DNA from: a plasmid
Assembly (NCBI RefSeq): GCF_055900595.2
Contig: NZ_JBVWEU010000002.1
Reading direction: 5' to 3' (one strand)
Length of the DNA stretch: 64,000 bases
Shown here: in pieces, positions 3,582-61,183 of the stretch
How positions within the stretch are numbered: the first letter of the stretch is position 1
How the letters are laid out: every line of letters starts with the position of its first letter
The notes under the pieces: model-generated
What the model was told of the DNA's origin: nothing
The model's database searches: none
Seen by the model: the letters and a program-made list of their open reading frames with translations, nothing else
Position numbers and translations under genes: made by a program

Positions 3582-3832
3582 TCTACAAAAATAAATTTTA
3601 ATATTTAAATACGGCAATATATTTTATCATGTATTGCCGTCTTGGCGTATTCTTTCCGTTCCATTCAATTGCATCTGGCATAACAAGAGAAATAGTAGAC
3701 TCCTCATTACTGCTGTTGTATAACTGCGCACCATAATCTGCTAGACTGGCCCCCTGAATCTCCAGACAACCAATATCACTTAAATAAGTGATAGTCTTAA
3801 TACTAGTTTTTAGACTAGTCATTGGAGAGCAG

Positions 3833-4198
3833 ATGATTGATGTCTTAGGACCGGAGAAACGCAGACGGCGTACTACACAGGAAAAGATCGCTATTGTTCA
3901 GCAGAGTTTTGAACCGGGAATGACGGTCTCCCTTGTAGCCCGGCAACACGGTGTGGCAGCCAGCCAGCTATTTCTCTGGCGCAAGCAATACCAGGAGGGA
4001 AGTCTTACTGCTGTGGCCGCAGGAGAGCAGGTCGTTCCTGCCTCTGAACTTGCTGCTGCCATGAAGCAGATTAAAGAACTCCAGCGCCTGCTCGGCAAAA
4101 AAACGATGGAAAATGAACTCCTTAAAGAAGCCGTTGAATATGGGCGTGCAAAAAAGTGGATAGCGCACGCGCCCTTATTGCCCGGGGATGGGGAGTAA
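3833..4198 (+). CDS. insC: IS2 transposase OrfA (InsC)
   Basis: [40 protein letters not shown] matches IS2 InsC; the annotated ORF starts 15 codons upstream at 3788. Confidence 0.85.
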
Positions 4199-4821
4199 GC
4201 TTAGTCAGCCGTTGTCTCCGGGTGTCGCGTGCGCAGTTGCACGTCATTCTCAGACGAACCGATGACTGGAAAGATGGTCGCCGCAGCCGTCACTCCGATA
4301 ATACGGATGTGCTTCTCCGTATACACCATGTTATCGGAGAGCTGCCCACGTATGGTTATCGTCGGGTATGGGCGCTGCTTCGCAGACAGGCCGAACTTGA
4401 TGGTATGCCTGCGATCAATGCCAAACGTGTTTACCGGATCATGCGCCAGAATGCGCTGTTGCTTGAGCGAAAAACCGCTGTACCGCCATCGAAGCGGGCA
4501 CATACTGGCAAAGTGGCCGTGAAAGAAAGCAATCAACGATGGTGCTCTGACGGGTTCGAGTTCCGCTGTGATAACGGAGAAAAACTGCGAGTCACGTTCG
4601 CGCTGGACTGCTGTGACCGTGAGGCACTGTACTGGGCGGTCACTACGGGCGGCTTCGACAGTGAAACAGTACAGGACGTCATGCCAGGAGCGGTGGAACG
4701 CCGCTTCGGCAACGAGCTTCCGGCGTCTCCAGTAGAGTGGCTGACGGATAATGGTTCATGCTACCGGGCTAATGAAACACGGCAGTTTGCCCGGATGTTG
4801 GGGCTTGAACCGAAGAACACA
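4156..4821 (+). pseudogene. insD: IS2 transposase OrfB (InsD), truncated after about 222 codons
   Basis: [34 protein letters not shown] matches InsD; the frame then continues in-frame into unrelated ABC-transporter sequence. Confidence 0.8.
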
Positions 4822-44391: not shown

Positions 44392-45165
44392 TTAAAAATT
44401 GGGTTTAAAATCTTCAGAAACGTTCAGGAATTGTTTTGCCAGGTCGTCCTGCGAAATAAAGCCGTATGATAACGGGCGAACACTGCCCTGTTTCGGGTCA
44501 ACCAGCATCATGGCCGGGAAATATTTCACGCCGAGGCGCTGCGCCTGCCCCTGGTCAGTCCGGGAATCCGGCAACAGCGGATTAATCACACCATCCACGG
44601 AAACGGGAATAACACTCAGACCATAGGTATCCCTGAAGCCATTAATGACCTGCGCCAGCTGCCCGTCGATGGGGTCCTGCCCCCGGTAAAAGAACATGAT
44701 GCCGTAGTGTTCAGCCAGTTTCGCAATGGCCTGTCGCTGCTGCACCTGGTCTGCCGCCAGCTGGTTCCGGACCGTGCCGTTGTAATGGCTGTACTGCAGG
44801 TTATAGTCCAGTTCGGGATGCGCCAGCATGGCTTTTTTGGCGCTCATGGTGAAAAGCCCGGCCTGCTGAGTCCAGTAATTCTGCAGCCGGAAATATTTCA
44901 CAAAATTATCCACGCCGGGATACAGAATGGCTTCGTACAGCGCCCGCTTTGTTGCCGTCTGCAGTGCGGCCAGTTTCTGCATAATGTCCGGCTCCTGACG
45001 GGGGGCTGCAGGTACTGGTTTATTTTCTTTTTCCTTCGGATTTATTTTCTCGTTATACCACTGCCAGCCTGCATCTTTTCCTGACGCCGGAAAAATAAAG
45101 CAGCAGAGTAACAGTGGCAGTAATGCTTTATTCATCTTCATTCCTTTCATCACTTTTTCTTTCAT
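44392..45165 (-). CDS. traF: pilus assembly protein TraF
   Basis: 257 aa with signal peptide; position and size. Confidence 0.9.
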   Translation of the reverse strand: MKEKVMKGMKMNKALLPLLLCCFIFPASGKDAGWQWYNEKINPKEKENKPVPAAPRQEPDIMQKLAALQTATKRALYEAILYPGVDNFVKYFRLQNYWTQQAGLFTMSAKKAMLAHPELDYNLQYSHYNGTVRNQLAADQVQQRQAIAKLAEHYGIMFFYRGQDPIDGQLAQVINGFRDTYGLSVIPVSVDGVINPLLPDSRTDQGQAQRLGVKYFPAMMLVDPKQGSVRPLSYGFISQDDLAKQFLNVSEDFKPNF

Positions 45166-45442: not shown

Positions 45443-46348
45443 TTATGCCGCTTCTTTTTCTGGATTCAGATAAACTGCCTGAATGAGTTCCCAGTCACGC
45501 AACTGTTTGCTCCAGCGCTCAGGATGACGTTTGCGAGCTTCGCGATAAACTTTTTTTCTGGCTTCCAGTATTTGTGCGTCAATTCCGCGATGGCGTTCAT
45601 CCGGAGTAACATACTTAATACCGCTGTGCTTGTGTTCCAGGTTGTACCATCGCGTGAACTTGCTTAACCAACTTCTGGCTTCATCTATGGTTCGAAAACC
45701 ATTCTCTGGCCACCATGGACAATACTTAATCGTCCGGAAGAGCGATTCGGAATAAGGGTTATCATTGCTGACCCGGGGACGGGAATAAGAACTTAATACG
45801 CCAAGCGCGTACATTTTTGCCAGTAACGTACAACTGCGCATTGGTCCTCCGTTATCAGAATGAAGCACGAGATTGCGGGATGAACATTTTTCATTCCATA
45901 CAGCACGTTGAAGCAGTTCTGCCGCATACTGCCCAGATTCTTTCGTAAATACTTCGGCAGCAATAATTTTTCGGCTATAAATATCGACGATCATATAGAG
46001 ATAAAAATGCTGCCCCTTAACCCACGATGGGATATAACTAATATCCCAGCTCCACACCTGGTTGGGGGCTACAGCTTTGAGTACTTCAGGCCGCTTATAT
46101 TGGTGTTCACGGGTTCTCCTTGTCAGTTGGTTAGCTGATTTTAATACGCGATAAAAAGTTGATTCTGACGCGATATAAACCCCTCTGTCGGCAAGAGTCG
46201 GAACAATAATATTCGGAGACAATGATGCAAACTCCGGAGAATTGCATACATCAAGTATTCTTAATCTTTCTGTTTCTGACAGTTTATTCCCCGGGGTACG
46301 CCTTGATGCACCTGGTCTCTGATCTGTATGAACCACACCACCCTGCAT
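45443..46348 (-). CDS. IS3-family transposase OrfB (integrase core)
   Basis: 301 aa with DDE-type motifs; frame is open upstream of the first Met, consistent with frameshift fusion to orfA. Confidence 0.75.
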   Translation of the reverse strand: MQGGVVHTDQRPGASRRTPGNKLSETERLRILDVCNSPEFASLSPNIIVPTLADRGVYIASESTFYRVLKSANQLTRRTREHQYKRPEVLKAVAPNQVWSWDISYIPSWVKGQHFYLYMIVDIYSRKIIAAEVFTKESGQYAAELLQRAVWNEKCSSRNLVLHSDNGGPMRSCTLLAKMYALGVLSSYSRPRVSNDNPYSESLFRTIKYCPWWPENGFRTIDEARSWLSKFTRWYNLEHKHSGIKYVTPDERHRGIDAQILEARKKVYREARKRHPERWSKQLRDWELIQAVYLNPEKEAA

Positions 46349-46467
46349 CCAACGTTGAAGTGTTCTGACTGAAATACCAATACACTGGCAGGCTTGTGTT
46401 TTTCTCGCTCCTGAACTGACAGCCTCGCTGACCAGATTAATAATCTTCTGCCGCTCTGGAAGAGGAG

Positions 46468-47013
46468 TCAGCCTTCCTCGCTGTTGTCCCAGAGGGCATT
46501 GAACTTTTCCCTTAACATCAAAAGAGCAGCTGCTTCCGCCAGAGCTTTATCTTTACGGAGAAGTTCTTTTTCCAGTTCCCGTAACTGGGTCTTTGCTTCG
46601 CGTAATTCTTTATCAGCACGGCGACTTTCTGCCATTTTCATTTCATGAGCCTGAATGGATATAGCTCTCCATTCTTTAACTTGCTCAACAAATAACCCCA
46701 TTCTCCGACAATAATCAGCCAGTTCCATTTCAGATAATGTTGCAGTTTCAATTACAACAGAAAATCGTCGCTCCGGTGTCCATTCATTTCCATCGACAGA
46801 AGATATTTTTTCATTTTCAGGTAACAGGCCTTGTTGCACCAGTTCAAGTCTCCATCTTGCTATTACTGAAGGGCTCAGGTCCAGTTTACGAGCAATATGC
46901 CGTATGGACCAACTATAAGGTGGTAATAACCAGGTAACACCTTGTTCTTTTATATCAATTGGTACTGCATGTGCGGGCATAGTCTCTCTCCTGTGTAAAA
47001 ATCTAGGCGACAA
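46468..47013 (-). CDS. IS3-family transposase OrfA
   Basis: 181 aa (likely start MPAHAV at 46980); DNA-binding N-terminus and C-terminal coiled coil. Confidence 0.7.
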   Translation of the reverse strand: MSPRFLHRRETMPAHAVPIDIKEQGVTWLLPPYSWSIRHIARKLDLSPSVIARWRLELVQQGLLPENEKISSVDGNEWTPERRFSVVIETATLSEMELADYCRRMGLFVEQVKEWRAISIQAHEMKMAESRRADKELREAKTQLRELEKELLRKDKALAEAAALLMLREKFNALWDNSEEG

Positions 47014-47172
47014 CTATGCTGACACAGGGGGATAACATTTGAACAGATCGCTGAATAACATCGATGGAGATCACTTTTGACTCATTTTGTTATTCAGTGA
47101 TCTCCATCAATGTTATTGGAACTTCACAGGTGTGTTGATCTGTATCTTTTGCCATTCCGGTAAAGGATACCT

Positions 47173-48714
47173 ATGCCAACAGTTCCAATTTCTATGAGAA
47201 AACTTAAAGAAATTCTTAGGCTTAAATACGGTGTTGGACTCAGCCATCGACAAATTGGTCGTAGTCTTGCAATCTCCCCTTCCGTTGTATCCAGATATGC
47301 TAATCGGGCGGCTCAACTTGGCATAAAGCAGTGGCCCTTACCTACAGGATGGGATGATACAAAACTAAAACATGCGTTCCTTCAGACCCAGGTTAAGATG
47401 AAGAAGCACTCTCTGCCTGACTGGGCTACAGTACACCGGGAACTGCGTAATAAATGCGTGACGCTGCAGCTACTCTGGGAAGAATACTGTGAGCGTAATC
47501 CAGGCGGTTTTTACAGCTATAACCATTACTGCCGGATGTACCGTGAATGGCTCAAAACCACTTCACCATCAATGCGTCAGGTACATAAAGCTGGCGAAAA
47601 ACTTTTCGTTGATTACTGTGGACCTACCGTTGGCGTTACCGACCCTGAGACCGGAGAAATAAGAACTGCTCAGGTCATCGTAGCTGTTCTCGGGGCATCA
47701 AGTTACACATGGGCAGAGGCCACCTGGTCTCAGCAGCTTGAAGACTGGGTGATGAGTCATGTTCGCTGCTTCCAGTGGTTGGGTGGCGTTCCTGAACTTG
47801 TTGTTCCGGACAATCTGAAAAGCGCCACATCCAGGGCATGTAAGTATGATCCTGACGTTAACCCTACCTACCAGCAGATGCTTGAGCATTATAATGTCGC
47901 AGTTTTGCCTGCGCGGCCACGTAAACCGAAAGATAAAGCCAAAGCTGAAGTTGGCGTTCAGGTTGTTGAACGCTGGATCATGGCCCGAATCAGGCATGAG
48001 ATCTTCTACAGCCTTGCATCGCTTAATCAGCGCATTCGGGAGTTGCTGGAAAGACTGAATAACAAAATAATGCAGAAGTTGGGTTATTCACGTGCAGAAC
48101 TCTTCATCCAGCTTGATAAACCCGCACTGAAGCCTCTTCCTGAAGCCAGTTACAGTTACACCCTGGTGAAGAAAGTCAGAGTTCATGCCGATTACCACGT
48201 GGAAATCGACAAACATTACTACTCGGTTCCATGTTCGCTGTTAGGCCAGCAACTGGAAGCATGGATCTCCGGAGAACTGGTAAGACTCTTCAATCAGGGG
48301 CAGGAGGTTGCTGTGCACCCGCGCAAGCGTACTTATGGCTACAGTACCCGCAACGAGCACATGCCTGAAGCTCATCGACAGCATGCCACCTGGACGCCAG
48401 AGCGTCTTCTGGAATGGGCGGGGCACATAGGCAGTGAAACTCATAGTTATGTGCTTCATATACTGAACTCTCGTCCACATCCGGAACAAAGCTATCGCTT
48501 CTGCCTTGGACTCCTGAACCTTCATAAAAAATACAGTAAAGCCAGACTTAATGCAGCATGTGCAAGAGCTCTGAAAACAAAGGTATGGCGTCTGTCAGGT
48601 ATTAAATCGATCCTGGAAAAAGGTCTGGATAAACAACCTGTTCAGGATCCAAAACCAGATCTGTTATCCACGATGGAACACGAAAACGTACGCGGCAGTG
48701 AGTATTACCACTGA
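47173..48714 (+). CDS. istA: IS21-family transposase IstA
   Basis: 513 aa; N-terminal HTH and DDE core. Confidence 0.85.
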   Translation: MPTVPISMRKLKEILRLKYGVGLSHRQIGRSLAISPSVVSRYANRAAQLGIKQWPLPTGWDDTKLKHAFLQTQVKMKKHSLPDWATVHRELRNKCVTLQLLWEEYCERNPGGFYSYNHYCRMYREWLKTTSPSMRQVHKAGEKLFVDYCGPTVGVTDPETGEIRTAQVIVAVLGASSYTWAEATWSQQLEDWVMSHVRCFQWLGGVPELVVPDNLKSATSRACKYDPDVNPTYQQMLEHYNVAVLPARPRKPKDKAKAEVGVQVVERWIMARIRHEIFYSLASLNQRIRELLERLNNKIMQKLGYSRAELFIQLDKPALKPLPEASYSYTLVKKVRVHADYHVEIDKHYYSVPCSLLGQQLEAWISGELVRLFNQGQEVAVHPRKRTYGYSTRNEHMPEAHRQHATWTPERLLEWAGHIGSETHSYVLHILNSRPHPEQSYRFCLGLLNLHKKYSKARLNAACARALKTKVWRLSGIKSILEKGLDKQPVQDPKPDLLSTMEHENVRGSEYYH

Positions 48715-48725
48715 TACGGGATCCA

Positions 48726-49475
48726 ATGATGAATCATCTTTACGAACAACTGACCGCACTTAAACTCACCGGCTTCCGTGATGCGCTTAAAAAGCAACTT
48801 GCTCAGCCGGGCACATACCAGGAGCTGGGCTTCGAAGAACGCCTGTCATTACTGACAGCAGAAGAACTAACCTGCCGTGAAAACAGGAAGGCAGAGCGTC
48901 TGATCAAACATGCACGGTTCAGACTTAATGCTGAGTTATCAAAGCTGGATTATCGTAACAATAGAGGGCTGGACAGGGCCCTCATCCGTTCACTCAGTCA
49001 GGGAAACTGGTTAACCCTGAAACAAAATATTTTACTGACCGGGGCCACCGGCAGCGGTAAAACGTTCCTGGCATGTGCACTTGGTCATAATGCCTGCCGA
49101 CAGGGATACAAGGTCTACTATTATCGCCTTAAAGCGCTGATGGAACAGTGCTATCAGGGGCATGCTGATGGAAGATACAGCAAACTTTTGACCAGGCTGA
49201 ATAATAGCGATCTGCTGCTTCTGGATGACTGGGGGCTGGAACCTCTCTCATCAGAACAGCGTAGCGACCTGCTGGAAATAGTGGATCTGATGTACCAACG
49301 AGGCTCAATCATCGTAGTGAGCCAGTTGCCGGTGGAAAACTGGTACAAAATGATCGGAGACTCCACACATGCGGATGCCATCCTAGATCGACTGGTTCAT
49401 GGCAGTATCAAGATCGAACTTAAAGGAGAATCAATGCGGAAAATACAATCTCCGTTGACCGAAGGAGATCAGTGA
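48726..49475 (+). CDS. istB: IS21-family helper ATPase IstB
   Basis: 249 aa with Walker A GATGSGKTF and Walker B LLLLDDWG. Confidence 0.85.
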   Translation: MMNHLYEQLTALKLTGFRDALKKQLAQPGTYQELGFEERLSLLTAEELTCRENRKAERLIKHARFRLNAELSKLDYRNNRGLDRALIRSLSQGNWLTLKQNILLTGATGSGKTFLACALGHNACRQGYKVYYYRLKALMEQCYQGHADGRYSKLLTRLNNSDLLLLDDWGLEPLSSEQRSDLLEIVDLMYQRGSIIVVSQLPVENWYKMIGDSTHADAILDRLVHGSIKIELKGESMRKIQSPLTEGDQ

Positions 49476-49634: not shown

Positions 49635-51443
49635 TTACTGTCCTGCCTGTTTCAGCTGGTCAGCAATCTGCTCTTTCACTTTCTGCGTCAGAACACCACT
49701 GTCCGGGATTTTCTGGTTATTCATCAGGTCTTCGTAGAAGTTAGTGAAATCCAGTCTGTCGAACTGAATTTTCTGCAGCTCATCAACCGTAATCCCCCGA
49801 CAGTCAGGATGCTTCGCACTGCCAAAACTGATACGCAGCTGTCCGTTGCGCCCCTGCTGCTGGACTATCTGCGCCAGCTTCGAATCAAACTGACAGTAAC
49901 TGCGTTTTTTCTCCAGGCAGACACCCAGCACTTTCTTCGAACAGAACTCTCCGACACTGACGGTCAGTTTGTTTGATTTTGCTTTAGCCAGGGCTTTTTC
50001 ATCACTGCTGCATTTGGCCAGCCCGATGTCCTGTCCCCAGCCGCTGTCCTTACAGCAGTTGCTGTATCCGGCTGCAGCCTTCTTACAAAATTTCGCCTGA
50101 CCGGTGAAAGCACGGACATCCACCCCGTTCAGCGCCGCAACATCCTTACCTGCTGCGGCCAGTGCCGCCAGCTGAGAAACGGCTTCGGCAAAATCATTAC
50201 TCTTCCCGCTCTGAGCCTTATCGCATTCGCCATCGAGACAGAAGACGTCTCCCCCACAGACCATCACTTTCCCGGATGTTTTTGACTCACAGGAGTACGT
50301 GGCATATTCATGCAGACAGGCACCTTCTTCGGAGTAAAAGGCACACTGGTGTGACACCAGGGTACAGGCTGGATTGTCGGTGTAGGTCTGACAGGTTCCC
50401 TTGTCTGCTGACTGTGTGACATACGTGTCCCGGTATGCCCAGCAGCTCTGGTACATGCTGTATGACTGACCGTCTTTCACCAGCGTCCTGTTCCCGCCAG
50501 CCTCCGTACATTCTGTTTTTGTCAGTTTCCCCAGCTCCTTGCTGAACGGGCAGCTTTCAGACCAGACAACATACGGGGTGTACGAGGCTTTTTTTACCCT
50601 GACAACCAGACGCAGCTTCATTGCCGTATGACGTTTGAATTTTGTATTCCCGACCCGGACGGGGTGAGATGACGTAAAAGCAACACCGGCAGTCAGTGTT
50701 TTCTGTACTGGTGTAAATGAGGCATCTGCTGAGTATTTGGCATTCCAGCTCAGTGGGGTTCCCAGTACTGTAATTGTCATAGGTACACTCTTCTGCAGGT
50801 AAGTACGACTCCAGCTGTAATGCGCATCGACAATTTCACCGGTAACGGGAGAGGTAATGGAGACAACATACTGACCATTCACTTCACGTGCAGGTAGCTG
50901 ACTCATTTCATACTCCAGCGTCCGGGTTTCCCATGTGGTACTCCCCTGCAGCTCCATACGGGCAGTTCGTGTGCAGTACTGCTCCACCTGTAAATCCCGC
51001 TCACAGGTGTAATTCGTGTATTCACTCCGGCTAATCTCCTGCGCACTGCACTGCTGCCCGGTGTTTCCCACAATGCTGTCAGCCCGGTTCACCACATCCC
51101 TGCCGGTCTGGATAAACGGTGCATCCGGTGAAAGAATGTCTTTCGGCTTGTTCATGAATGACTCTGTGATGGTTTTTCCGGTTTCACCGGTCGCCCATTC
51201 CGTGGTGCCGTCATTTTTCAGGCCGCCATCCCCGCCGGCAGTCACGCCACCGTAGTATTTTGTCTCGTCCGGATTCGCGTTATAGCCGGGGATACTCTCC
51301 TGTGGCTTAAAGCCCTGAATACTGCTGCTTCCCTGTCCTTTGATCTGGTGAGCAAAATCAGAGCCGGCCCGGTAATCACTGTTGCTGTCAGCCTGTGCCA
51401 TGCCGGCAACCAGAGCCAGTATCAGAGGTAAAATACGTTTCAT
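49635..51443 (-). CDS. traN: mating-pair stabilisation outer-membrane protein TraN
   Basis: 602 aa, cysteine-rich, with signal peptide. Confidence 0.9.
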   Translation of the reverse strand: MKRILPLILALVAGMAQADSNSDYRAGSDFAHQIKGQGSSSIQGFKPQESIPGYNANPDETKYYGGVTAGGDGGLKNDGTTEWATGETGKTITESFMNKPKDILSPDAPFIQTGRDVVNRADSIVGNTGQQCSAQEISRSEYTNYTCERDLQVEQYCTRTARMELQGSTTWETRTLEYEMSQLPAREVNGQYVVSITSPVTGEIVDAHYSWSRTYLQKSVPMTITVLGTPLSWNAKYSADASFTPVQKTLTAGVAFTSSHPVRVGNTKFKRHTAMKLRLVVRVKKASYTPYVVWSESCPFSKELGKLTKTECTEAGGNRTLVKDGQSYSMYQSCWAYRDTYVTQSADKGTCQTYTDNPACTLVSHQCAFYSEEGACLHEYATYSCESKTSGKVMVCGGDVFCLDGECDKAQSGKSNDFAEAVSQLAALAAAGKDVAALNGVDVRAFTGQAKFCKKAAAGYSNCCKDSGWGQDIGLAKCSSDEKALAKAKSNKLTVSVGEFCSKKVLGVCLEKKRSYCQFDSKLAQIVQQQGRNGQLRISFGSAKHPDCRGITVDELQKIQFDRLDFTNFYEDLMNNQKIPDSGVLTQKVKEQIADQLKQAGQ

Positions 51444-53708: not shown

Positions 53709-54091
53709 GGCTCCGCCCTCATTCGCCGGGCGATATCCTGCTGGATTTCCCGGGTGATATCCGGAGCCCCCTGTACCACGGCAGGCGACACCAGAATGAC
53801 CGCGTGGTGTTTCTGCTGCCATGCCTGCAGGCTGGCTTCCAGTGCCGTGTTAAAACGCGCTGAAAGGGCTTTTGACTGTACTTCTGACAGTTGTTTCTGA
53901 CTGGCGCTGTCAAAAAACGCATCCACGGTCTGTTTCATGTTGAAGGCGGCAGTCACCGGTGCGTTCAGTCTGACAATGCCGTAACTGATGGCTGCGTTCA
54001 GTAACACCATTGCCAGGCATCCCGGCACCGTCCACCACCAGTGGCTGCGTCGACGGGCTGTAACGTCAGTCGTTTTTTGCGTTGTGGTCAT
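53705..54091 (-). CDS. trbI: TrbI
   Basis: 128-aa membrane protein between traC and traW. Confidence 0.8.
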   Translation of the reverse strand: MTTTQKTTDVTARRRSHWWWTVPGCLAMVLLNAAISYGIVRLNAPVTAAFNMKQTVDAFFDSASQKQLSEVQSKALSARFNTALEASLQAWQQKHHAVILVSPAVVQGAPDITREIQQDIARRMRAEP

Positions 54092-56718
54092 GCAACACTC
54101 CTGTATTTCTCATGTTCTTCCAGCCAGGCTTCCAGCGAAGCCATCTCCGGCCCTGACTTCTTCCACGCCAGCTGCCACACCGCCTCATGAATACTCAGCC
54201 CCTCTTTACGTTTCTGCTGCACAAACTCAAAATCCGGGCCGTCAGAGCTGTACATGGCGCGGCTTAACGGGTCCACAAACAGGCGGTGCCAGGAGGAATG
54301 GTTTTCCACCTGCAGCAGGAAGGAACTGAACCACTGATCTTTGGCCGCACCGAACTTACCAATCATGTCACGCTGCAGTGGCAGGAACTGGTCCGGATAC
54401 AGCTGGTTGTATTTCGCGAACTCCTTCGCACTCTGTTTGAGGATAATTTTGTAGGAGGAGTTACCCCATGCTGCACGGGCCGCACTGGAGGCCTTGTCAG
54501 AGTCAAAGTCGACGATGTTCTGTGTGATGGTGATATAGGCACCGGTATGACGGCGGGCGGTACGGTAGCCTTTCTCAATAAATTCACCGACCTTGTGATT
54601 TTTGAAGTCCAGCAGACGCCAGCCTTCATCAATGACGTTCAGTTTCTTGAGGTTACGCGGCGTGCGGTACATCCGGTTCTCAATGTAAATGATAAGGCTG
54701 AACATCACCGCAACCAGCAGGGATGGACGGTCTTCCAGTCCGCCCAGCTCCAGCACCACCATTTTCGCATCATCCCGCAGGGACGGCTCATCGGAGTTGA
54801 AATACTGGCCATAAGTGCCGTTAGCAGTGTACTGGTCAAGCAGCACAATCATTTCGTCCAGACGGCTGCGGATGGTCGGTGATTCGGCATACTGCTCGCT
54901 GTCACTGGCGTTTTTCAGGAAATCCACCACGTCATCAATACGTGCCCTGTTCTCTTTGGCCAGCCATGATGCCCTGACTGCCTGCAGCAGCAGACCTTCA
55001 TGCACTTCATCCAGGTTACCGTTGGGGCTGGCCATCACCGACAGCTGGTCGCGGACACGCTCCGCTGACTGGTCAATATCGGTGATGTTCGCAAACGGGT
55101 TAAAGCGCAGGGTTTCACCGTCCAGATATACGCCCCCCATGTTCTCACACAGGGACTTGTAGCCATCCCCCATGTCGAACACCACGGCAAAGCCCCCGGA
55201 GTCCAGCACGCTGCGGATAAGTGGCTGTATCAGCCCGGTTTTACCGGCCCCGGAGGTGCCACAGACCGCCATGTTATAGTTGGTGTTATTCATCCCCCGG
55301 AAGAAAATATCGATAAACGCCAGCTGGTTACGGTAGGTGGGTGCCAGCAGACCTGCCGGTGTCAGGGGGTTATCCGCCACTAACGGCATCAGGTTGGCCA
55401 CATTAAAGCTCTCTGCGCGCTGTACCACTCCGGCCTCTTTCAGCTGTTTAAACAACCCTTTCCCGGCCATAAAGGGCAGACAGGTCAGGAAATTGCGCAT
55501 GTGGTTAAAGCGCGGTGAAATCAGCTCAAAACCGTTTTTACGGAAGCTGTTCAGGATGTCCTGCTCCACTTCCAGTGCCGTTTCATTATTGTCCTTGCAG
55601 AAGGCTGTGATGTTGAGGAAGTAGGACACGACAGAGGACTGACCGGAGCCCAGCCGCTGACGCAGTTCCCCCCACTCCTTCGCCTCTTTCTCCACGGACG
55701 GAAACCATTTGGCATAGGAGGTCTTCGACTTTTTCTCCAGGTCCATGTACTTCAGGTTGGCTTCGCTGTGGGTTTTCACCTGGTCTTCCACCACCAGAGT
55801 CAGCGTCAGGATGAACGGACAGGAGATGGACAGTTCCGGGTTCAGCAGGTTGCTGTAGTTGTCGGCCATGTTCCACAGGAAGGCGATTTCCGGGTTACGG
55901 GCCAGATGGAAATTCAGGATGCGGGCCGTGCTGTTCCTGCCGTTCTCACGCAGGCCCAGCGTCAGGTAATCAGCCCGGACTTTCAGGTCAAAACTGTCCT
56001 CCACACACTGATAATTCAGATCAGAATACGGGTCCAGCTGACGTCTTTTCGGGTACAGGGAGTCCGGGTTATGGTTAATCATCTCCCCGACAATATCGAT
56101 AAAGGCCTGTGCATCCACCGTCTGTGTGGTGATACTGGCCCCCTGTAACGACGCCCGGATGATTTTCACCAGGTTTTCCATTTCCAGAATGTCGGCCCGG
56201 CTTTTTTTCTTCGAAGGAGAACAGTACGAGATAAACACCCGGTAATGGCGCAGGGTCAGGGGCAGATTCATCCCCTCCGGCAGCGGAAACTGTGTCGCTG
56301 CCGCTTTCATATAATAGGCCCGGGTAATGGCGTTAAACCGTTCAGCCTGTTCACCTGACCAGGAGAACTCACGCAGCCCGTATTCAATCCTGTCACCAAC
56401 CAGCTGACTGGACATCAGATGGATACACAACGGAATACCGCGCGGCAGTTTGGTGCGCAGCATGTGATCGAGGGCCTCCACAATGGACTCATTCGCCCCA
56501 TTGATGGGAATGGCTTCCAGCATAAAGCCCATCGTGGTGTCATTCATGAACAGACCGGATTCCTGGTTGTAATCACGATACGGCAGCAGACGGCTGAACT
56601 GCGGGAAGCTCATTTCGCCCAGCACTTCATTGGCCTTTGCTGATTCGTCAGGCAGTTTCAGTGCTGTGACGAGGGAGTTAACCGCCTGAGTGACGGCCTC
56701 AAGTGGGTTATTACTCAT
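54088..56718 (-). CDS. traC: pilus assembly ATPase TraC (VirB4-like)
   Basis: 876 aa with Walker A GTSGAGKT. Confidence 0.95.
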   Translation of the reverse strand: MSNNPLEAVTQAVNSLVTALKLPDESAKANEVLGEMSFPQFSRLLPYRDYNQESGLFMNDTTMGFMLEAIPINGANESIVEALDHMLRTKLPRGIPLCIHLMSSQLVGDRIEYGLREFSWSGEQAERFNAITRAYYMKAAATQFPLPEGMNLPLTLRHYRVFISYCSPSKKKSRADILEMENLVKIIRASLQGASITTQTVDAQAFIDIVGEMINHNPDSLYPKRRQLDPYSDLNYQCVEDSFDLKVRADYLTLGLRENGRNSTARILNFHLARNPEIAFLWNMADNYSNLLNPELSISCPFILTLTLVVEDQVKTHSEANLKYMDLEKKSKTSYAKWFPSVEKEAKEWGELRQRLGSGQSSVVSYFLNITAFCKDNNETALEVEQDILNSFRKNGFELISPRFNHMRNFLTCLPFMAGKGLFKQLKEAGVVQRAESFNVANLMPLVADNPLTPAGLLAPTYRNQLAFIDIFFRGMNNTNYNMAVCGTSGAGKTGLIQPLIRSVLDSGGFAVVFDMGDGYKSLCENMGGVYLDGETLRFNPFANITDIDQSAERVRDQLSVMASPNGNLDEVHEGLLLQAVRASWLAKENRARIDDVVDFLKNASDSEQYAESPTIRSRLDEMIVLLDQYTANGTYGQYFNSDEPSLRDDAKMVVLELGGLEDRPSLLVAVMFSLIIYIENRMYRTPRNLKKLNVIDEGWRLLDFKNHKVGEFIEKGYRTARRHTGAYITITQNIVDFDSDKASSAARAAWGNSSYKIILKQSAKEFAKYNQLYPDQFLPLQRDMIGKFGAAKDQWFSSFLLQVENHSSWHRLFVDPLSRAMYSSDGPDFEFVQQKRKEGLSIHEAVWQLAWKKSGPEMASLEAWLEEHEKYRSVA

Positions 56719-56843
56719 ATGAGTATTCCTTAGTGCGTTTAAAAAAGGAAAATATCAGTCTGTGGCCGTGGATATATCACGCAGTGCCATTCCTGAAACC
56801 ACAGCACAAATAAGAGATGGAGGCTTTTAACAGGAAACCAGGA

Positions 56844-57233
56844 TTAACGTTCCTTTACTGAATGAGCATCATTTAATGCCTGAATTTGTTTTTCGCGAAT
56901 CTTATTGCGCTCATTTTCTCTTACCCGTTTCACCTCTGCCATTTCGTTTCTTTCTCTACACGCTGATGCAAGCTCTTTTGCCTTACCAAGACTTAAAGGT
57001 TCAGGCTGATAATCAGATGTGTCAGACTTAATAGCTTCCTTAAATGCTTCTGCTGCACAGGGGATATCCTGTGTAATCTCTGTCAGTTGTTCTGGTGTTG
57101 CAGGTTGTTGCTCAAGGTAGTCATTGTAAAAAAGACCACATATCAACATAGCCATAACGCCAACAAATATAAAAGCCAGAACAGATTTTAAATATATCGA
57201 CTTCATTTCATTTTCCTTCGAAGCAGTAAGCAC
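56844..57233 (-). CDS. hypothetical membrane-anchored protein (between traR and traC)
   Basis: 129-aa ORF; possible start MKSIYLKSVLAFIFVGVMAMLICGLF (signal/TM); lower GC than flanking tra genes. Confidence 0.45.
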   Translation of the reverse strand: MLTASKENEMKSIYLKSVLAFIFVGVMAMLICGLFYNDYLEQQPATPEQLTEITQDIPCAAEAFKEAIKSDTSDYQPEPLSLGKAKELASACRERNEMAEVKRVRENERNKIREKQIQALNDAHSVKER

Positions 57234-57452
57234 TCATTGCCCACCACCATTCAGTGTTTCCATCACGTTGTTCAAAGGTTCATTTGTTTTAACTTCAATA
57301 CATTCCCCTGTATTTCCAAAGCCCCTGCCTCCGTGTGCTTCGATTGTCCGAAGAACCTGCACGCATACGTCCGTATTTGGCATGGGAGTAACATTCCAGC
57401 TTCCGCCACCGTTAATATTTTTTATCAGCACAAGAAAAATAAAGGTATGCAT
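57234..57452 (-). CDS. hypothetical small protein (between traR and traC)
   Basis: 72-aa ORF abutting the downstream ORF. Confidence 0.35.
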   Translation of the reverse strand: MHTFIFLVLIKNINGGGSWNVTPMPNTDVCVQVLRTIEAHGGRGFGNTGECIEVKTNEPLNNVMETLNGGGQ

Positions 57453-57531
57453 TCTTTATTACCGCCTGTTAAATATTAATCACTGAATATCCCTTCAGTT
57501 AACTTATGAGGTCATAAAACACTGCAGATTC

Positions 57532-58008
57532 TCATTCGGATTTATTCTCTTCAGTAAACTTCCGGATGGTATCCTGTTCACGCTGACGGGTGGCAGACTC
57601 CTGCATTGCATCCACTTTCTCCTGCCAGAGACGCCGGATATCCTGTTCATCCCGACCAGTCAGTTTTTTACCGGACAACAAACGGTTAAGCAGTTCCTGT
57701 CTCGCATCCGGTACGTCTTCAGTCAGACGCATAAGCTGAAGCAGGCTCTGACGGCTGAGGACCATGCGTGATTCCTCCGGTACGCTGTAATAATTAAAAA
57801 TACGACTGAATACCCCACAACAGCAGGCAACGGACAGGCACAGGGATTTCAGATACAGGCCAGAAACACAGAATGTGGCAACACCACAAAGAATAGCTAT
57901 AACTAAAAAGCCCTTACCCAGCGCCATACACAAAGAACCCTGTTTTCTGGATATCCGCTCATGCTCATCCAGAATAAAATCTATTTTTTCATTTTCTGAT
58001 TTATGCAT
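57532..58008 (-). CDS. hypothetical membrane protein (between traR and traC)
   Basis: about 158-171 aa with a central hydrophobic segment and charged C-terminal coiled coil; overlaps the traR 3' end. Confidence 0.45.
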   Translation of the reverse strand: MHKSENEKIDFILDEHERISRKQGSLCMALGKGFLVIAILCGVATFCVSGLYLKSLCLSVACCCGVFSRIFNYYSVPEESRMVLSRQSLLQLMRLTEDVPDARQELLNRLLSGKKLTGRDEQDIRRLWQEKVDAMQESATRQREQDTIRKFTEENKSE

Positions 58009-58222
58009 AGTGTTTCCTCTGCCTTTCCTGATACGCCTGACATTCAACGCACAACGTCACACCGGGAAATATTTTCCGCCGGGCTTCCGGAATAGGATTT
58101 CCGCATGCTTCACAGAGATAAACAGGAATACCATGAGCATTTATTTTCTGGCGTATCCGGTTTATTCCTGTCATGGTCAGTTGTTCTGTCACTGAATATG
58201 CTTCATCGACTTCATCACTCAC
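58001..58222 (-). CDS. traR: TraR (DksA-like zinc-finger protein)
   Basis: 73 aa with C4 zinc finger CEACGNPIP...CVECQ. Confidence 0.9.
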   Translation of the reverse strand: MSDEVDEAYSVTEQLTMTGINRIRQKINAHGIPVYLCEACGNPIPEARRKIFPGVTLCVECQAYQERQRKHYA

Positions 58223-58356
58223 GGAATATTCCTCCCGACATGTTCTGACACGCTACCGCCCATCCCTTTTCACGCACAGGGCACTCGTTTTACAGGCAGA
58301 TTTTGAATACAGAAAGCCCGCCGGCATTGCCGGCTGATATACAACTTCAGGGCCAG

Positions 58357-58872
58357 TTAATTAATACGTGGTTTTCCCCACGCAGACGGTTTAATAACAA
58401 AAAACACGCTGGATGGCTGATGATAAACATCCTGATTATCAATATAAGGCGCTATCCATAATGCTGCCGTCTGCTCACCCGTTCTTAGCGGACGGGGAGG
58501 CGTTACCGGCGCAACTGAACTGACCGGGACAACCGTTTTCACTTCCCGGGCTGCAGTAAACAGCGGGCGAGGTGTCAGCAGTTTCTGCTCCGGAAGTGTC
58601 GTCACCGCAGGTCTGCTGCCGGACGGAGTGGTTGCGGTGATGGTCTGCACCGGCATTGTCCGGAAGTTCCCTTCAGCCAGGCGCGGCAGTGATGCCGCAA
58701 CCGGCTTTGCTTCTGAGGACTGCTCCAGTTTTTTGGCCTTCTCATTGGCCTGCTCCATCGTCATACAGGTATCGGATGTGGTGGCGTTACACTCAAATTC
58801 CGTATTTGTTCCTGCGCAGCCGGAAAGTAATAAGGTTCCCAGCAGAGGAATAAATAAAGAAATCTGTTTCAT
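58357..58872 (-). CDS. traV: pilus assembly lipoprotein TraV
   Basis: 171 aa with lipoprotein signal LLLSGCAG. Confidence 0.9.
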   Translation of the reverse strand: MKQISLFIPLLGTLLLSGCAGTNTEFECNATTSDTCMTMEQANEKAKKLEQSSEAKPVAASLPRLAEGNFRTMPVQTITATTPSGSRPAVTTLPEQKLLTPRPLFTAAREVKTVVPVSSVAPVTPPRPLRTGEQTAALWIAPYIDNQDVYHQPSSVFFVIKPSAWGKPRIN

Positions 58873-59237
58873 TGCCCTTCTCCTTTTTTATTACTCCCCA
58901 CAACAGCAGAAATTAACTCTGCTGTCAGATTTGTTTTCCCTGCACAGGGATGTCCGGAGACCACTGTATTTCCCGGAGAAGAAAATAAGCTCATCGACAT
59001 TCCCTTCTTCATCACACCGACAGCAGCCATATTAAAATTGTGCGGCAATGATTCAGAACTGAACTCCTTCGGAGCAGGAAGAACTATTTTTGTGGTGCAG
59101 TTACTGAGAACAGCATGCATAAAATCATCTGATACGTTTTTATCCGGCACAACGCGGGCTGTAATAACATTAATATTACGCATGTTCATTTTTATCTCCG
59201 TTGCCTCTGTTTGTTCGGTCATCAGGGAAATAAACAT
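58869..59237 (-). CDS. TrbG/TrbD-region ORF
   Basis: 122-aa ORF in the traP-traV interval where F carries trbD and trbG; exact start uncertain. Confidence 0.35.
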   Translation of the reverse strand: MFISLMTEQTEATEIKMNMRNINVITARVVPDKNVSDDFMHAVLSNCTTKIVLPAPKEFSSESLPHNFNMAAVGVMKKGMSMSLFSSPGNTVVSGHPCAGKTNLTAELISAVVGSNKKGEGQ

Positions 59238-59766
59238 GGCATTTCCTGATTTTTCCCGGCAGGGAAGCGTCTTCCGTATAAACGTCCTTCAGATATTCAT
59301 CTGCGGTTACCACCCGGATACATTTCATTTTTCCGGGCAGCACCGGATATTTCCCGGTGATCGCTGCCAGCGAGACATACATCAGTGCCAGTGTTGCCCA
59401 TAATGCGGTGACCAGTTGCATCAGTGACCGGTCAGTCTCCCTGACATAATCTGCAGCATCAGCCGCGCGGTAATGGCAGATATCCTGTATTTCTGATCTG
59501 CCTGAAGAATCAGAGGAAGAAAACCAGCATTCACTGACCGGGAACTGTCCGGCAGGTGCTGTTTGTCTTACGAAGTTAATCTCCTTAACCAGTAATTTCC
59601 CCGGCGTGGTGTTGTCCTTCCATAAAACAAACAGAGCCATCAGGGCCATTGTGGCCAGTGGCAGAATGACGGTGTACTTCAGACACCAGAACAGTCCTCG
59701 CAGAACCCGGGCGACAACATACCGGGCGGCATGGCACGCCTGACGGGACGACATATTATTTGCCAT
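59176..59766 (-). CDS. traP: TraP
   Basis: 196-aa membrane protein downstream of traB. Confidence 0.8.
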   Translation of the reverse strand: MANNMSSRQACHAARYVVARVLRGLFWCLKYTVILPLATMALMALFVLWKDNTTPGKLLVKEINFVRQTAPAGQFPVSECWFSSSDSSGRSEIQDICHYRAADAADYVRETDRSLMQLVTALWATLALMYVSLAAITGKYPVLPGKMKCIRVVTADEYLKDVYTEDASLPGKIRKCHVYFPDDRTNRGNGDKNEHA

Positions 59767-61183
59767 CGTTGCCCCCTCCCTGGCTGCCGGACATAAACTG
59801 CTGCGGATTCAGGTTGCCCAGCTGCTTCAGCATCTGGTCAGTATTAAAGCCGTTAAGATGACTTTCAGCCGATGGCGGAACAGGAACCGGACTTTCCGGA
59901 TTGTCTTCTTCCGCTCTGCTCTGCGTGCGTTCCAGCGCCATCTCTTCCACGGTTTTCAGCTGGAAGCCGTCCTGGAACACCACGGTCACTTCGTTGCCCG
60001 CACCAATCGGTATCACCGGGTGATACTGTTCGGCACGTTTGATGTAGTAGTCACTGAGCGTCTGTGCGGCTTTCGATGCGCCGCCACCGATACCCATTTT
60101 CAGGACATCACCAGCCCCGTAAGCGGCTGTGGCACCCAGCCCGACAGCCGGCTGGGAAGCGCGCTCCATTCCCTGACCGATACCGTCAACAAATCCCGCG
60201 CCCCATGCCCAGCCGAGGATTTTGCCGTTACGCATCACCACTTCGCCCTTGATACCGTTTTTACCCCGGAAGCTGACATGCCCCTTAATCGGCATATCAA
60301 TGGTTTTGCCGTCCTTCAGGCAGCTGATATTGCGGGTGCGTACAATGGCACGTTCACTGGACACATCCCCCCAGGCTTCCAGCCCCACAAAACATCCCGT
60401 TGCGTCATACGTTTTGCTGTTCGGCATTTCCACCAGACCGGTGATACGCAGCTGCATCGGCACCGTGGATTCATTACCGGTGACTGAGGCATTGGCATCC
60501 GCTCCTTCAATCAGCATGGCTTTCGCAAAACTTCCTGACGGAATGTACGGCAGTGATGGTCCCTGTTTTCCCTCATTACGGGTGAACACCTTACGCTGTA
60601 TCCGGTTAGGCACCGGTACAGACTGGTACGTCACCTGCGGTGGTGGCGTGACACCATTACCTGGATAAAACGCCGTCGGCGGTGGAACAGCAACGCTGCC
60701 CTGCGGCGGGAAAGATACGGGTGTGTTTCCTGGCTGTGGTTCGCCTTCCGGGCCGGGCGGTGAGGCTGGCGTCTGCGGTACTGGCTCACCGGTCGCGGTG
60801 ACAGGATTTGCACCCAGGGCTTTCACCTGCTCTGCCAGTGCAGCATTGTCCTGTCCCAGCTTTTCAATACGACGCTGGTCATCACCGCGCTGTTTGTTCA
60901 GGACATCCAGCTCACGACGGATTTCCTCATACTGCTTCTGCATCTGTGCTGCCGTCACCTGCATCTCTGTGGTGGCATGCTGACGCACCTTGTCATCAAA
61001 GGTCGTATCCACCACACCGGTCATATCCGGCACAGGCTCCTGTTCAGCCACGGCTTCACCGTTACCGGACATGTCCACATCAGACAGATACAGTGCCCCA
61101 CCAATCGCGGAGGCTGCACCGACAACCACAATCCCCAGCCACAGGTACTGCTTGCGTTTCACAATGGTATTGATACTGGCCAT
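59756..61183 (-). CDS. traB: TraB (VirB10-like)
   Basis: 475 aa with N-terminal TM segment and proline-rich linker. Confidence 0.9.
   Translation of the reverse strand: MASINTIVKRKQYLWLGIVVVGAASAIGGALYLSDVDMSGNGEAVAEQEPVPDMTGVVDTTFDDKVRQHATTEMQVTAAQMQKQYEEIRRELDVLNKQRGDDQRRIEKLGQDNAALAEQVKALGANPVTATGEPVPQTPASPPGPEGEPQPGNTPVSFPPQGSVAVPPPTAFYPGNGVTPPPQVTYQSVPVPNRIQRKVFTRNEGKQGPSLPYIPSGSFAKAMLIEGADANASVTGNESTVPMQLRITGLVEMPNSKTYDATGCFVGLEAWGDVSSERAIVRTRNISCLKDGKTIDMPIKGHVSFRGKNGIKGEVVMRNGKILGWAWGAGFVDGIGQGMERASQPAVGLGATAAYGAGDVLKMGIGGGASKAAQTLSDYYIKRAEQYHPVIPIGAGNEVTVVFQDGFQLKTVEEMALERTQSRAEEDNPESPVPVPPSAESHLNGFNTDQMLKQLGNLNPQQFMSGSQGGGNDGK

What the first reader, a model, noticed from the sequence alone, without database searches (positions are those of the whole stretch)
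56844..58047. Three unassigned ORFs between traR and traC
Between traR and traC, where I recall no genes in F, lie three co-directional ORFs of 171, 72 and 129 aa; two have predicted membrane or signal segments. The region appears more AT-rich than the neighbouring tra genes, suggesting separate acquisition. Small membrane proteins inside a transfer operon could affect mating-pair formation or exclusion. I am not certain these are absent from F itself.
Basis: inference. Interest (0 to 1): 0.45.

Follow-up and report, generated by a model that had tools for sequence, protein, structure and literature searches.

The report
R100-type yfiABC genes, lost from F
The three small genes between traR and traC are real and are already annotated as yfiA/yfhA, yfiB and yfiC in plasmid R100 and over a thousand relatives; their function is unknown, and the classical F plasmid lacks them because it deleted them.

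Summary
Three co-directional ORFs on the minus strand fill the traR-traC gap, and the interval is AT-rich (GC 0.425, against 0.543 in traC). The likely products are 158, 72 and 120 aa rather than the maximal 171/72/129.

They are not new. R100 names them yfhA/yfiA, yfiB and yfiC. In PLSDB, 1165 plasmids carry at least 80% of the interval.

Canonical F has only a 159-bp gap here. That gap still holds the first ~118 nt of a yfiA-like gene, so F is a ~1.16-kb deletion derivative. The cassette is not a recent insertion.

Substitution patterns show that all three ORFs code for protein. No Pfam, NCBIfam, PADLOC, PHROG, PDB or Rfam assignment was found.

- **YfiA:** two membrane-spanning helices, with conserved cytoplasmic N- and C-terminal parts and a mosaic, highly variable hairpin. 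Its start codon overlaps the traR stop. Relatives follow traR in divergent F-like operons and also occur on IncI1, IncI2 and IncX-like plasmids.
- **YfiB:** a small soluble alpha/beta protein under purifying selection, with a paralogue in a plasmid leading region.
- **YfiC:** one membrane anchor and a probable periplasmic domain with two conserved cysteines.

The cassette appears dispensable for transfer. The molecular function remains inferred. Interest is low to moderate.

The parts
58001..58222 (-). traR (73 aa, DksA/TraR zinc-finger regulator). Its stop codon overlaps the start of ORF A.
   Evidence: NCBIfam NF010268 TraR E 1e-53 and Pfam PF01258 E 2e-13. The sequence ...CACTATGCATAA shows the 8-nt overlap.
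57532..58008 (-). ORF A = yfiA/yfhA-like gene, 158 aa (the maximal ORF from TTG 58047 gives 171 aa). Predicted inner-membrane protein with a two-helix hairpin and both ends in the cytoplasm.
   Evidence: ORF. PGAP start. Named yfiA in LC744480. 97.7% identical to R100 yfhA over aa 1-130 and 70% to R100 yfiA. Hydropathy. AF2 model pLDDT 83 with helices 5-47, 51-75, 86-95, 100-111 and 118-156. Within-allele dN/dS 0.15-0.27.
57760..57963 (-). Hypervariable, mosaic segment of ORF A (codons 16-83, the membrane hairpin).
   Evidence: Against the R100-type allele: dS 0.56, dN 0.61, ratio about 1.1. The C-terminal codons 84-158 give dS 0.06, dN 0.012. Nucleotide identity drops to 52-77% over 57980-57741 inside flanks that are 95-100% identical. 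Column entropy is 1.7-1.8 bits, against 0.66 in the C-domain.
57625..57759 (-). Conserved cytoplasmic C-domain of ORF A (codons 84-128), with the motif LSRxxLLxLM..D.PD.RxELLxRLLSGKxLTGRDE.
   Evidence: These residues are invariant or nearly invariant across IncF, pSLT, IncI1 and IncI2 homologues and in remote members P0308, P0338 and P0344. pLDDT is above 90.
57234..57452 (-). ORF B = yfiB-like gene, 72 aa. Small soluble protein with no membrane segment and two conserved cysteines.
56844..57206 (-). ORF C = yfiC, 120 aa (the maximal ORF from GTG 57233 gives 129 aa). N-terminal membrane anchor followed by a charged helical domain with two conserved cysteines, predicted to be periplasmic.
   Evidence: UniRef name 'YfiC protein' for the 98%-identical cluster P0195. 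PGAP start. Hydropathy and charge distribution. The motifs QPATPEQL, PCAxEAF and ASxC are kept in the 39%-identical Klebsiella homologue. dN/dS 0.64-0.76.
56735..57890 (.). The 1156-bp stretch that F-type plasmids lack, replaced there by about 36 unalignable bases.
   Evidence: blastn of the window against F-type L002 aligns 57891-58886 and 56000-56734 only. Canonical F has the same 159-bp gap.
56719..56843 (-). Spacer between ORF C and traC, carrying the traC ribosome-binding site (AAGGAAT).
   Evidence: Sequence. It is 100% conserved against L009. No promoter-like site and no convincing terminator were found.
54088..56718 (-). traC (VirB4-type ATPase), the downstream boundary of the interval.
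   Evidence: ORF. Over the 874 aligned residues (aa 3-876) it is identical to F TraC.

Best explanation
The three ORFs are the R100-type accessory genes yfiA (also called yfhA), yfiB and yfiC of F-like transfer operons.

**Shown:**
- They are genuine protein-coding genes.
- They sit inside the long tra transcript, with no promoter or terminator of their own.
- About a third of the traR-containing plasmids matched in PLSDB carry them.
- Classical F lacks them because of a ~1.16-kb deletion that left a decayed 5' stub of yfiA.

**Inferred from sequence and models:**
- YfiA is an inner-membrane protein with a two-helix hairpin. Its conserved N-terminal peptide and ~45-residue C-domain face the cytoplasm. 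It is made by translational coupling to TraR.
- YfiB is a small cytoplasmic alpha/beta protein.
- YfiC is anchored by one N-terminal helix and exposes a helical domain, probably disulfide-bonded, to the periplasm.

**Inferred function (weakest step):** they are dispensable modulators, not parts of the DNA-transfer machine. They would act while the type IV secretion system is being expressed, on regulation or on envelope homeostasis.
- The most specific guess is that YfiA is a membrane-tethered cytoplasmic adaptor that works alongside TraR or other operon-proximal regulators.
- YfiC, and perhaps YfiB, would be envelope-side accessory factors.
For: **Identity**
- Papers PMC5052281 and PMC2762410 name them as R100 backbone genes.
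- 1165 plasmids carry at least 80% of the interval.

**Coding status**
- dN/dS values are. PGAP calls all three ORFs. No RNA family matches.

**Operon membership**
- No promoter or terminator was found. Good ribosome-binding sites and the traR-yfiA overlap are visible in the sequence.

**F is a deletion derivative**
-.

**Old linkage of yfiA to traR**
- pSLT, L018 and L014 all place a yfiA homologue after traR. In these operons TraR is only 60-82% identical to the window's, and YfiA only 24-46%.

**Topology and architecture**
-.

**Dispensability**
- F transfers without the cassette.
- ORF C is internally deleted in L010 and L011, and ORF B is frameshifted in L012.
- The IncI1 homologue YafA scored P(non-essential) 0.96 and P(needed for transfer) 0.00 in the pESBL TnSeq study (PMC4288162).

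**Association with regulators**
- yfiA homologues follow TraR in IncF plasmids, a ProQ/FinO-family gene in IncI1, and a NusG-like gene plus a 74-aa ORF at the head of a VirB-type operon in an IncX-like plasmid.
- TraR can stop growth when expressed ectopically and boosts sigma-E activity (PMC9239242). This gives a plausible reason for a coupled partner.
Against: - No domain, family or fold match gives any biochemical function.
- The link to regulators rests on three contexts only. It could simply reflect where regulators sit in operons.
- YfiA occurs without TraR (IncI1, IncI2, IncX-like). TraR works in F without YfiA.
- YfiB and YfiC occur without YfiA or TraR in Klebsiella IncFII(K) plasmids. 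The three genes therefore need not act together.
- A YfiB paralogue in a leading region hints at a role in the recipient rather than the donor.
- High dN/dS in YfiC and in the YfiA hairpin could mean relaxed constraint, that is, genes on their way out.
- Topology is predicted, not measured.
Confidence: 0.7

Rival explanations
1. The cassette is foreign cargo (a 'moron') recently inserted into the tra operon of some lineages. F shows the original, gene-free state.
For: - GC is low: 0.425 against 0.54 in traC.
- The gene content of this site differs between lineages: 0 in F, 2 in pSLT, 3-4 in R100-type plasmids and 6 in Klebsiella.
- YfiA relatives sit on IncI1, IncI2 and IncX-like plasmids. A YfiB relative sits in a leading region.
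Against: - F carries about 118 nt of a yfiA-like 5' end in exactly the right place. The ATG overlaps the traR stop, and the fragment then decays.
- The traR-yfiA order is conserved in F-type operons whose TraR is only 60-64% identical to the window's.
- There is no transposase, no terminal or target-site repeat, and no promoter.
- traR and trbD are just as AT-rich.
Confidence: 0.12
2. The membrane proteins are specificity determinants of mating: entry or surface exclusion, or mating-pair formation. Their variable segments would define exclusion or recognition groups, as TraS, TraT, TraG and TraN alleles do.
For: - A and C are located in the membrane.
- Both have mosaic hypervariable segments with dN/dS about 1.1 (A hairpin) and 0.65-1.2 (C), inside otherwise near-identical operons.
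- R100 carries two different hairpin alleles in tandem.
- An exclusion function would be invisible in donor-side transfer assays such as the pESBL TnSeq.
Against: - The variable part of YfiA is the buried hairpin, with a periplasmic loop of only about 3-4 residues. Its conserved parts are cytoplasmic and are shared between IncF, IncI and IncX-like systems, whose exclusion partners are unrelated.
- dS is raised about ten-fold in the same segment (0.56 against 0.06). This points to recombinational mosaicism rather than in-place positive selection.
- F-like plasmids already encode TraS and TraT; in this window they sit at about 37.3-38.6 kb (assigned from position and size, not checked).
- F excludes normally without the cassette (established knowledge).
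Confidence: 0.1
3. They are a defence, anti-defence or addiction-type module carried by the plasmid and unrelated to the transfer machine. Examples would be protection against pilus-specific phages, or a small membrane toxin with a soluble partner.
For: - They are small, fast-evolving, narrowly distributed 'dark' proteins on several plasmid types.
- A YfiB paralogue lies just downstream of psiB-psiA in a leading region, followed by a small membrane protein. From my own knowledge, leading regions are rich in anti-defence genes.
- YfiB is followed by a small membrane-protein gene in all three contexts seen.
Against: - There are no PADLOC hits at E up to 1.
- There are no significant PHROG hits. 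The best is E 0.007, to a family of unknown function.
- The membrane proteins that follow YfiB are not homologous to each other.
- Frequent pseudogenisation argues against an addiction module.
Confidence: 0.08

Closest known systems
R100 (NR1) backbone ORFs yfhA, yfiA, yfiB and yfiC between traR and traC
   Same: - Same position and orientation.
- ORF A is 97.7% identical to yfhA over aa 1-130 and 70% to yfiA.
- ORF B is 97% identical to the R100 72-aa ORF.
- ORF C is 79% identical to the R100 115-aa ORF.
- All are annotated as hypothetical.
   Different: - R100 has four ORFs. Its first, yfhA, is a chimera of YfiA aa 1-130 and the last 7 residues of TraR, created by a tandem duplication with its junction at CAGGAA. 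It is followed by a full yfiA with a different hairpin allele.
- The window has the unduplicated three-gene form.
- The window's YfiC carries a 5-residue insertion relative to the R100 allele.
Classical F plasmid traR-traC junction
   Same: Flanking genes are almost identical. TraC is identical over the 874 aligned residues, TraR is 98.6% identical and TraB 99.4%.
   Different: F has a 159-bp gap. It contains only a decayed yfiA 5' fragment (28 residues, 64% identical) and no yfiB or yfiC.
YafA of IncI1 plasmids (R64, pESBL, ColIb-type)
   Same: - Same architecture as ORF A: an N-terminal I/L-x-(D/N)-(E/K)-H-(E/D) motif (e.g. LDEHE, LNKHE), a two-helix hairpin, and a C-terminal RLLSGKxMTGRDE domain.
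- 34-39% identical.
- Function unknown.
   Different: - It sits outside the transfer genes, after a ProQ/FinO-family gene and next to yagA.
- It is not linked to a TraR homologue.
- It was shown to be non-essential for replication and transfer in the pESBL TnSeq study.
TraS-type inner-membrane entry-exclusion proteins of F-like plasmids
   Same: They are small inner-membrane proteins encoded in the tra operon, with strong allelic divergence between otherwise similar plasmids.
   Different: - There is no sequence similarity.
- The locus differs: traS lies between traG and traT.
- YfiA has almost no periplasmic exposure.
- YfiA has a cytoplasmic domain conserved across unrelated T4SS types.

Membership tests
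R100-type yfhA/yfiA-yfiB-yfiC conserved hypothetical genes | Located between traR and traC, on the same strand as the tra operon | tested here: met
R100-type yfhA/yfiA-yfiB-yfiC conserved hypothetical genes | Clear sequence homology of each ORF to its R100 counterpart | tested here: met
   A: 97.7% to yfhA and 70% to yfiA. B: 97%. C: 79%. Database names yfiA and YfiC appear.
Named F-type Tra/Trb transfer proteins (Pfam and NCBIfam models) | Significant match to a curated Tra/Trb family model | tested here: not met
   No hit reached the curated cut-off for any of the three ORFs. In the same searches TraR and TrbD scored E 1e-53 and 8e-84.
Named F-type Tra/Trb transfer proteins (Pfam and NCBIfam models) | Required for pilus assembly or DNA transfer | not testable with these tools
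   Indirect evidence only. F lacks them. Pseudogenised variants exist. The IncI1 YafA is non-essential for transfer (PMC4288162).
TraS-like entry exclusion proteins | Inner-membrane protein with an exposed, allele-specific region that the donor machinery can recognise | tested here: inconclusive
   YfiA: the variable region is the buried hairpin, with a loop of about 3-4 residues. YfiC: its variable membrane-proximal half is probably periplasmic, so it cannot be excluded.
TraS-like entry exclusion proteins | Reduces DNA entry when expressed in recipients | not testable with these tools
   This needs an exclusion-index assay.
Known anti-phage defence systems (PADLOC-DB) | Match to a defence-protein model | tested here: not met
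   No hits at E up to 1 for any of the three ORFs.
Mobile-element insertion (IS, transposon or gene cassette) | Transposase or integrase, terminal inverted repeats, and target-site duplication at the borders | tested here: not met
   Only short chance repeats were found, and none at the borders. There is no recombinase ORF.
Structured non-coding RNA | Match to an Rfam covariance model | tested here: not met
   No match at E up to 1 over 56500-58400.

The most novel reading that the evidence does not exclude
YfiA may define an unrecognised family of membrane-tethered partners of transfer-operon regulators. It is made in fixed ratio with TraR by translational coupling. Its conserved cytoplasmic domain would hold or buffer TraR (or, on IncI and IncX-like plasmids, other regulators) at the inner membrane. 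This would tie the global transcriptional reprogramming by TraR to the state of the secretion machine or envelope. F, the model plasmid, would then be a natural yfiA-null mutant in which TraR acts unrestrained.
Probability: 0.1. Interest if true: 0.6.

Novelty: already known. Interest (0 to 1): 0.27.

Why it matters
Almost all mechanistic knowledge of F-type conjugation comes from F itself. At this locus F turns out to be a deletion variant. About a third of the traR-containing plasmids matched in PLSDB, including R100-type resistance plasmids, express three extra small proteins together with the secretion machine, and two of them are membrane proteins. Nobody has tested what they do.

If they tune TraR activity, envelope stress, fitness cost or phage sensitivity, that would affect how resistance plasmids persist and spread. 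As it stands, the finding is a correct re-discovery of annotated hypothetical genes. What this analysis adds is their evolutionary history, domain architecture and distribution.

Tried and rejected
- **Family searches.** Pfam, NCBIfam, PADLOC and PHROGs gave no significant hit for any of the three proteins. Pfam also found nothing for ten neighbouring small ORFs from pSLT, Klebsiella and leading-region loci.
- **PDB profile search.** The YfiA alignment gave nothing below E 2.
- **Exhaustive profile search.** HMMER over 1.84 billion representative proteins found only 114 hits. All are small, with the same architecture or fragments of it. The few longer ones look like gene-call fusions with neighbouring genes (polysaccharide deacetylase, ProQ).
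- **Paralogues in the window.** None were found.
- **Local signals.** No promoter, convincing terminator, RNA family or flanking repeat was found.
- **YfiB's downstream neighbours.** I tested whether the small membrane proteins that follow YfiB in different contexts are homologous. They are not.
- **Literature.** Searches for any functional study of yfhA, yfiA, yfiB, yfiC or the traR-traC interval found only sequence-annotation papers.
- **Not done.** I considered cross-tabulating yfiA and yfiC alleles against traS, traG and traN alleles.
Full report
**1. What is there**

The tra operon runs on the minus strand of this part of the window: traB 59756-61183, traP 59176-59766, trbD 58869-59237, traV 58357-58872, traR 58001-58222 and traC 54088-56718.

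Reading the sequence suggests shorter products for the first and third.
- ORF A most plausibly starts at ATG 58008 (158 aa). This ATG follows GAGGAAA and overlaps the traR stop (ATGCATAA).
- ORF C most plausibly starts at ATG 57206 (120 aa), after GAAGGAAA.
- NCBI's PGAP annotation pipeline made the same calls in a record that is 100% identical over this interval: E. coli plasmid p135-3, NZ_CP080263.1, from chicken faeces.

The AT-richness is real. The interval has GC 0.425 and ORF C 0.388, against 0.543 for traC. It is shared by traR (0.450) and trbD (0.420).

**2. Are they genes?**

Yes. I compared them with orthologues from seven other F-like plasmids using Nei-Gojobori dN/dS.

| Gene | dN/dS | Note |
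|---|---|---|
| ORF A | 0.15-0.27 | within its allele type |
| ORF B | 0.11-0.38 | 0.22 against a Klebsiella homologue at dS 0.87 |
| ORF C | 0.64-0.76 | |
| flanking tra genes | 0.01-0.26 | |

No Rfam family, sigma-70-like promoter or convincing terminator lies in the interval. This fits read-through transcription from the main tra promoter.

**3. Are they new?**

No.
- In PLSDB, 1165 of the 3549 plasmids that match the query carry at least 80% of the 1.55-kb interval.
- ORF A is labelled yfiA in some records.
- The cluster 98% identical to ORF C is 'YfiC protein' in UniRef.
- Papers list yfhA and yfiABC as R100 backbone genes. One states that YfhA has no counterpart in F (PMC5052281; PMC2762410).

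R100 itself has four ORFs here. Its first, yfhA, is YfiA residues 1-130 joined to the last seven residues of TraR (...RRLWQE|TQRKHYA). This marks a tandem duplication whose unit runs from the 3' end of traR into yfiA. It is followed by a complete yfiA with a different hairpin allele. The window carries the simpler, unduplicated form.

**4. Why F lacks them**

Canonical F (NC_002483) has a 159-bp traR-traC gap with no annotated gene. Alignment shows that F-type plasmids match the window on both sides: 57891-58886, and up to 56734. They lack the 1156 bp in between.

The first ~118 nt after the traR stop in F are a diverged yfiA 5' end that soon runs into a frameshift and stop. tblastn detects residues 1-28 at 64% identity, E 5e-6.

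Intact yfiA homologues follow traR, overlapping or within 13 nt, in three other settings:
- pSLT, where YfiA is 46% identical;
- an F-type operon where TraR is only 60% identical and YfiA 24%;
- an F-type operon where TraR is 64% identical and YfiA 34%.

No transposase or border repeats flank the cassette. The parsimonious reading is that yfiA is an old companion of traR and that F is a deletion derivative. In an evenly spaced sample of the PLSDB hits, 24 of 40 rows matched only the stretch that F retains (query 1192-1551; one of them, H20, was fetched and has the F-type gap). The deleted form therefore appears common.

**5. Anatomy of the proteins**

*YfiA*
- It has a hydrophobic hairpin at about residues 23-76 and charged ends.
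- AF2 (pLDDT 83) models two long antiparallel helices and a compact C-domain with pLDDT above 90.
- Across 16 diverse homologues, the N-terminal 22 residues (EKIxxILDEHE) and residues 84-128 (LSRxxLLxLM..D.PD.RxELLxRLLSGKxLTGRDE) are conserved. The hairpin is highly variable.
- Between the window allele and the R100 yfiA allele, the hairpin has dS 0.56 and dN 0.61. The C-terminal half has dS 0.06 and dN 0.012.
- This is a recombinational mosaic with little constraint beyond hydrophobicity. It is not clean evidence of positive selection.

*YfiB*
- It has no membrane segment, two conserved cysteines and a conserved His2.
- AF2 gives a beta-beta-alpha-beta-alpha fold (pLDDT 78).

*YfiC*
- It has two lysines before its single anchor and an acidic stretch after it, which predicts an N-in, C-out orientation.
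- The motifs QPATPEQL, PCAxEAF and ASxC, with both cysteines, are kept in a 39%-identical Klebsiella homologue. That homologue also has a longer charged N-terminus.
- This is consistent with a disulfide-bonded periplasmic domain, but that is an inference.

**6. Distribution**

*YfiA*
- Homologues occur in about 3100 PLSDB plasmids. These include IncI1, where the gene is named yafA and lies after a ProQ/FinO-family gene, and IncI2 R721.
- In an IncX-like plasmid (Rep3 replicon) it lies at the head of a VirB-type operon. It sits after a NusG-like gene and a 74-aa ORF, and before the VirB1-like transglycosylase.
- An exhaustive profile search of 1.84 billion representative proteins found only 114 hits, all with this architecture or fragments of it. 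The family is narrow and plasmid-borne.

*YfiB and YfiC*
- Homologues occur in more than 2200 Klebsiella records. The two examined are IncFII(K) plasmids, where they lie between traV and traC among six small, mostly membrane ORFs.
- Those plasmids have neither traR nor yfiA.
- An unannotated YfiB paralogue (45% identical, E 1e-20) lies downstream of psiB-psiA in the leading region of IncFII plasmids from Salmonella and Citrobacter.

The three genes are therefore separable modules. The traV/traR-traC interval is a variable site for small envelope proteins: 0 genes in F, 2 in pSLT, 3-4 in R100-type plasmids and 6 in Klebsiella.

**7. Function**

No family, defence-system, phage-family, PDB sequence or fold match gives a biochemical lead.

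Three lines of evidence indicate dispensability for transfer:
- F transfers without them.
- ORF C is internally deleted in two plasmids and ORF B is frameshifted in another.
- In the pESBL (IncI1) TnSeq study, YafA scored 0.96 non-essential and 0.00 required for transfer (PMC4288162).

The best-supported statement is that these are accessory proteins co-expressed with the secretion machine.

For YfiA, several features make a membrane-tethered cytoplasmic adaptor the most specific hypothesis I can defend:
- its conserved cytoplasmic domain;
- its conserved translational coupling to TraR;
- its position next to RNA polymerase-binding or RNA-binding regulators on three plasmid types.

TraR reprograms RNA polymerase, boosts sigma-E activity and can arrest growth (PMC9239242). 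A coupled partner that buffers or localises it is plausible but unproven, and I give it about 10%.

Its periplasmic loop is only 3-4 residues, and its conserved parts are shared across unrelated T4SS types. The same role remains open for YfiC.

**8. Verdict**

It is wrong on history, because this is loss in F rather than gain here.

The genes are already annotated, so novelty is 'already known'. What this analysis adds:
- the deletion scar in F;
- the origin of R100's chimeric yfhA;
- the YfiA domain architecture and its spread over IncF, IncI and IncX-like plasmids;
- the YfiB paralogue in a leading region.

Interest is low to moderate.

Noticed in passing
window 45443-49475: The tra operon is interrupted between traN (49635-51443) and traF (44392-45165). 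On the opposite strand sits an IS21-family istA/istB pair (47173-48714 and 48726-49475; E 1e-92 and 2e-80). There is also an IS3-family transposase ORF (45443-46348) and an unassigned 181-aa ORF (46468-47013). The insertion is probably polar on the distal tra genes, so this plasmid may be transfer-defective despite its 'conjugative' typing.
   Followed up: partly
window 58869-59237: trbG is absent, and trbD is the long 122-aa form that abuts traV, as in R100. F has a short trbD plus trbG. This is a second variable spot of small AT-rich genes just upstream of the finding.
   Followed up: partly
L004 (R100, NC_002134) 3699-4578: R100 yfhA is a chimera of YfiA residues 1-130 and the last 7 residues of TraR, with the junction at CAGGAA. 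It arose by tandem duplication. The following yfiA has a different membrane-hairpin allele, so R100 carries two hairpin types side by side.
   Followed up: yes
L019 (F, NC_002483) 3575-3658; L002 3001-3117: Classical F keeps a decayed 5' fragment of a yfiA-like gene immediately after traR. It is not annotated in the record.
   Followed up: yes
L022 2995-3198 (NZ_CP034178.1); L023 about 4001-4108: An unannotated 67-aa paralogue of YfiB (45% identical, E 1e-20) lies in the plasmid leading region, downstream of psiB-psiA. It is followed by a 124-aa multi-pass membrane ORF and lies near an N-6 DNA methylase gene.
   Followed up: partly
L005 2772-5277; L021 1339-3694 (Klebsiella IncFII(K) plasmids): These plasmids have no traR. 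Instead, six small, mostly membrane ORFs lie between traV and traC, including YfiB and YfiC homologues and two paralogues that share a W-K-(N/D)-D-C-R motif. None has a Pfam family.
   Followed up: partly
proteins P0041, P0042, P0102: A few database proteins of 148-229 aa combine the TraR zinc-finger domain (PF01258) with YfiA sequence. They could be rare natural fusions across the 8-nt overlap, or frameshift or gene-calling artefacts.
   Followed up: no
L015 5179-6829 (IncX-like plasmid, GCA_010456865.1): A remote YfiA homologue (27% identical) sits between a NusG-like gene plus a 74-aa ORF and the VirB1-like transglycosylase, at the head of a VirB-type transfer operon.
   Followed up: partly
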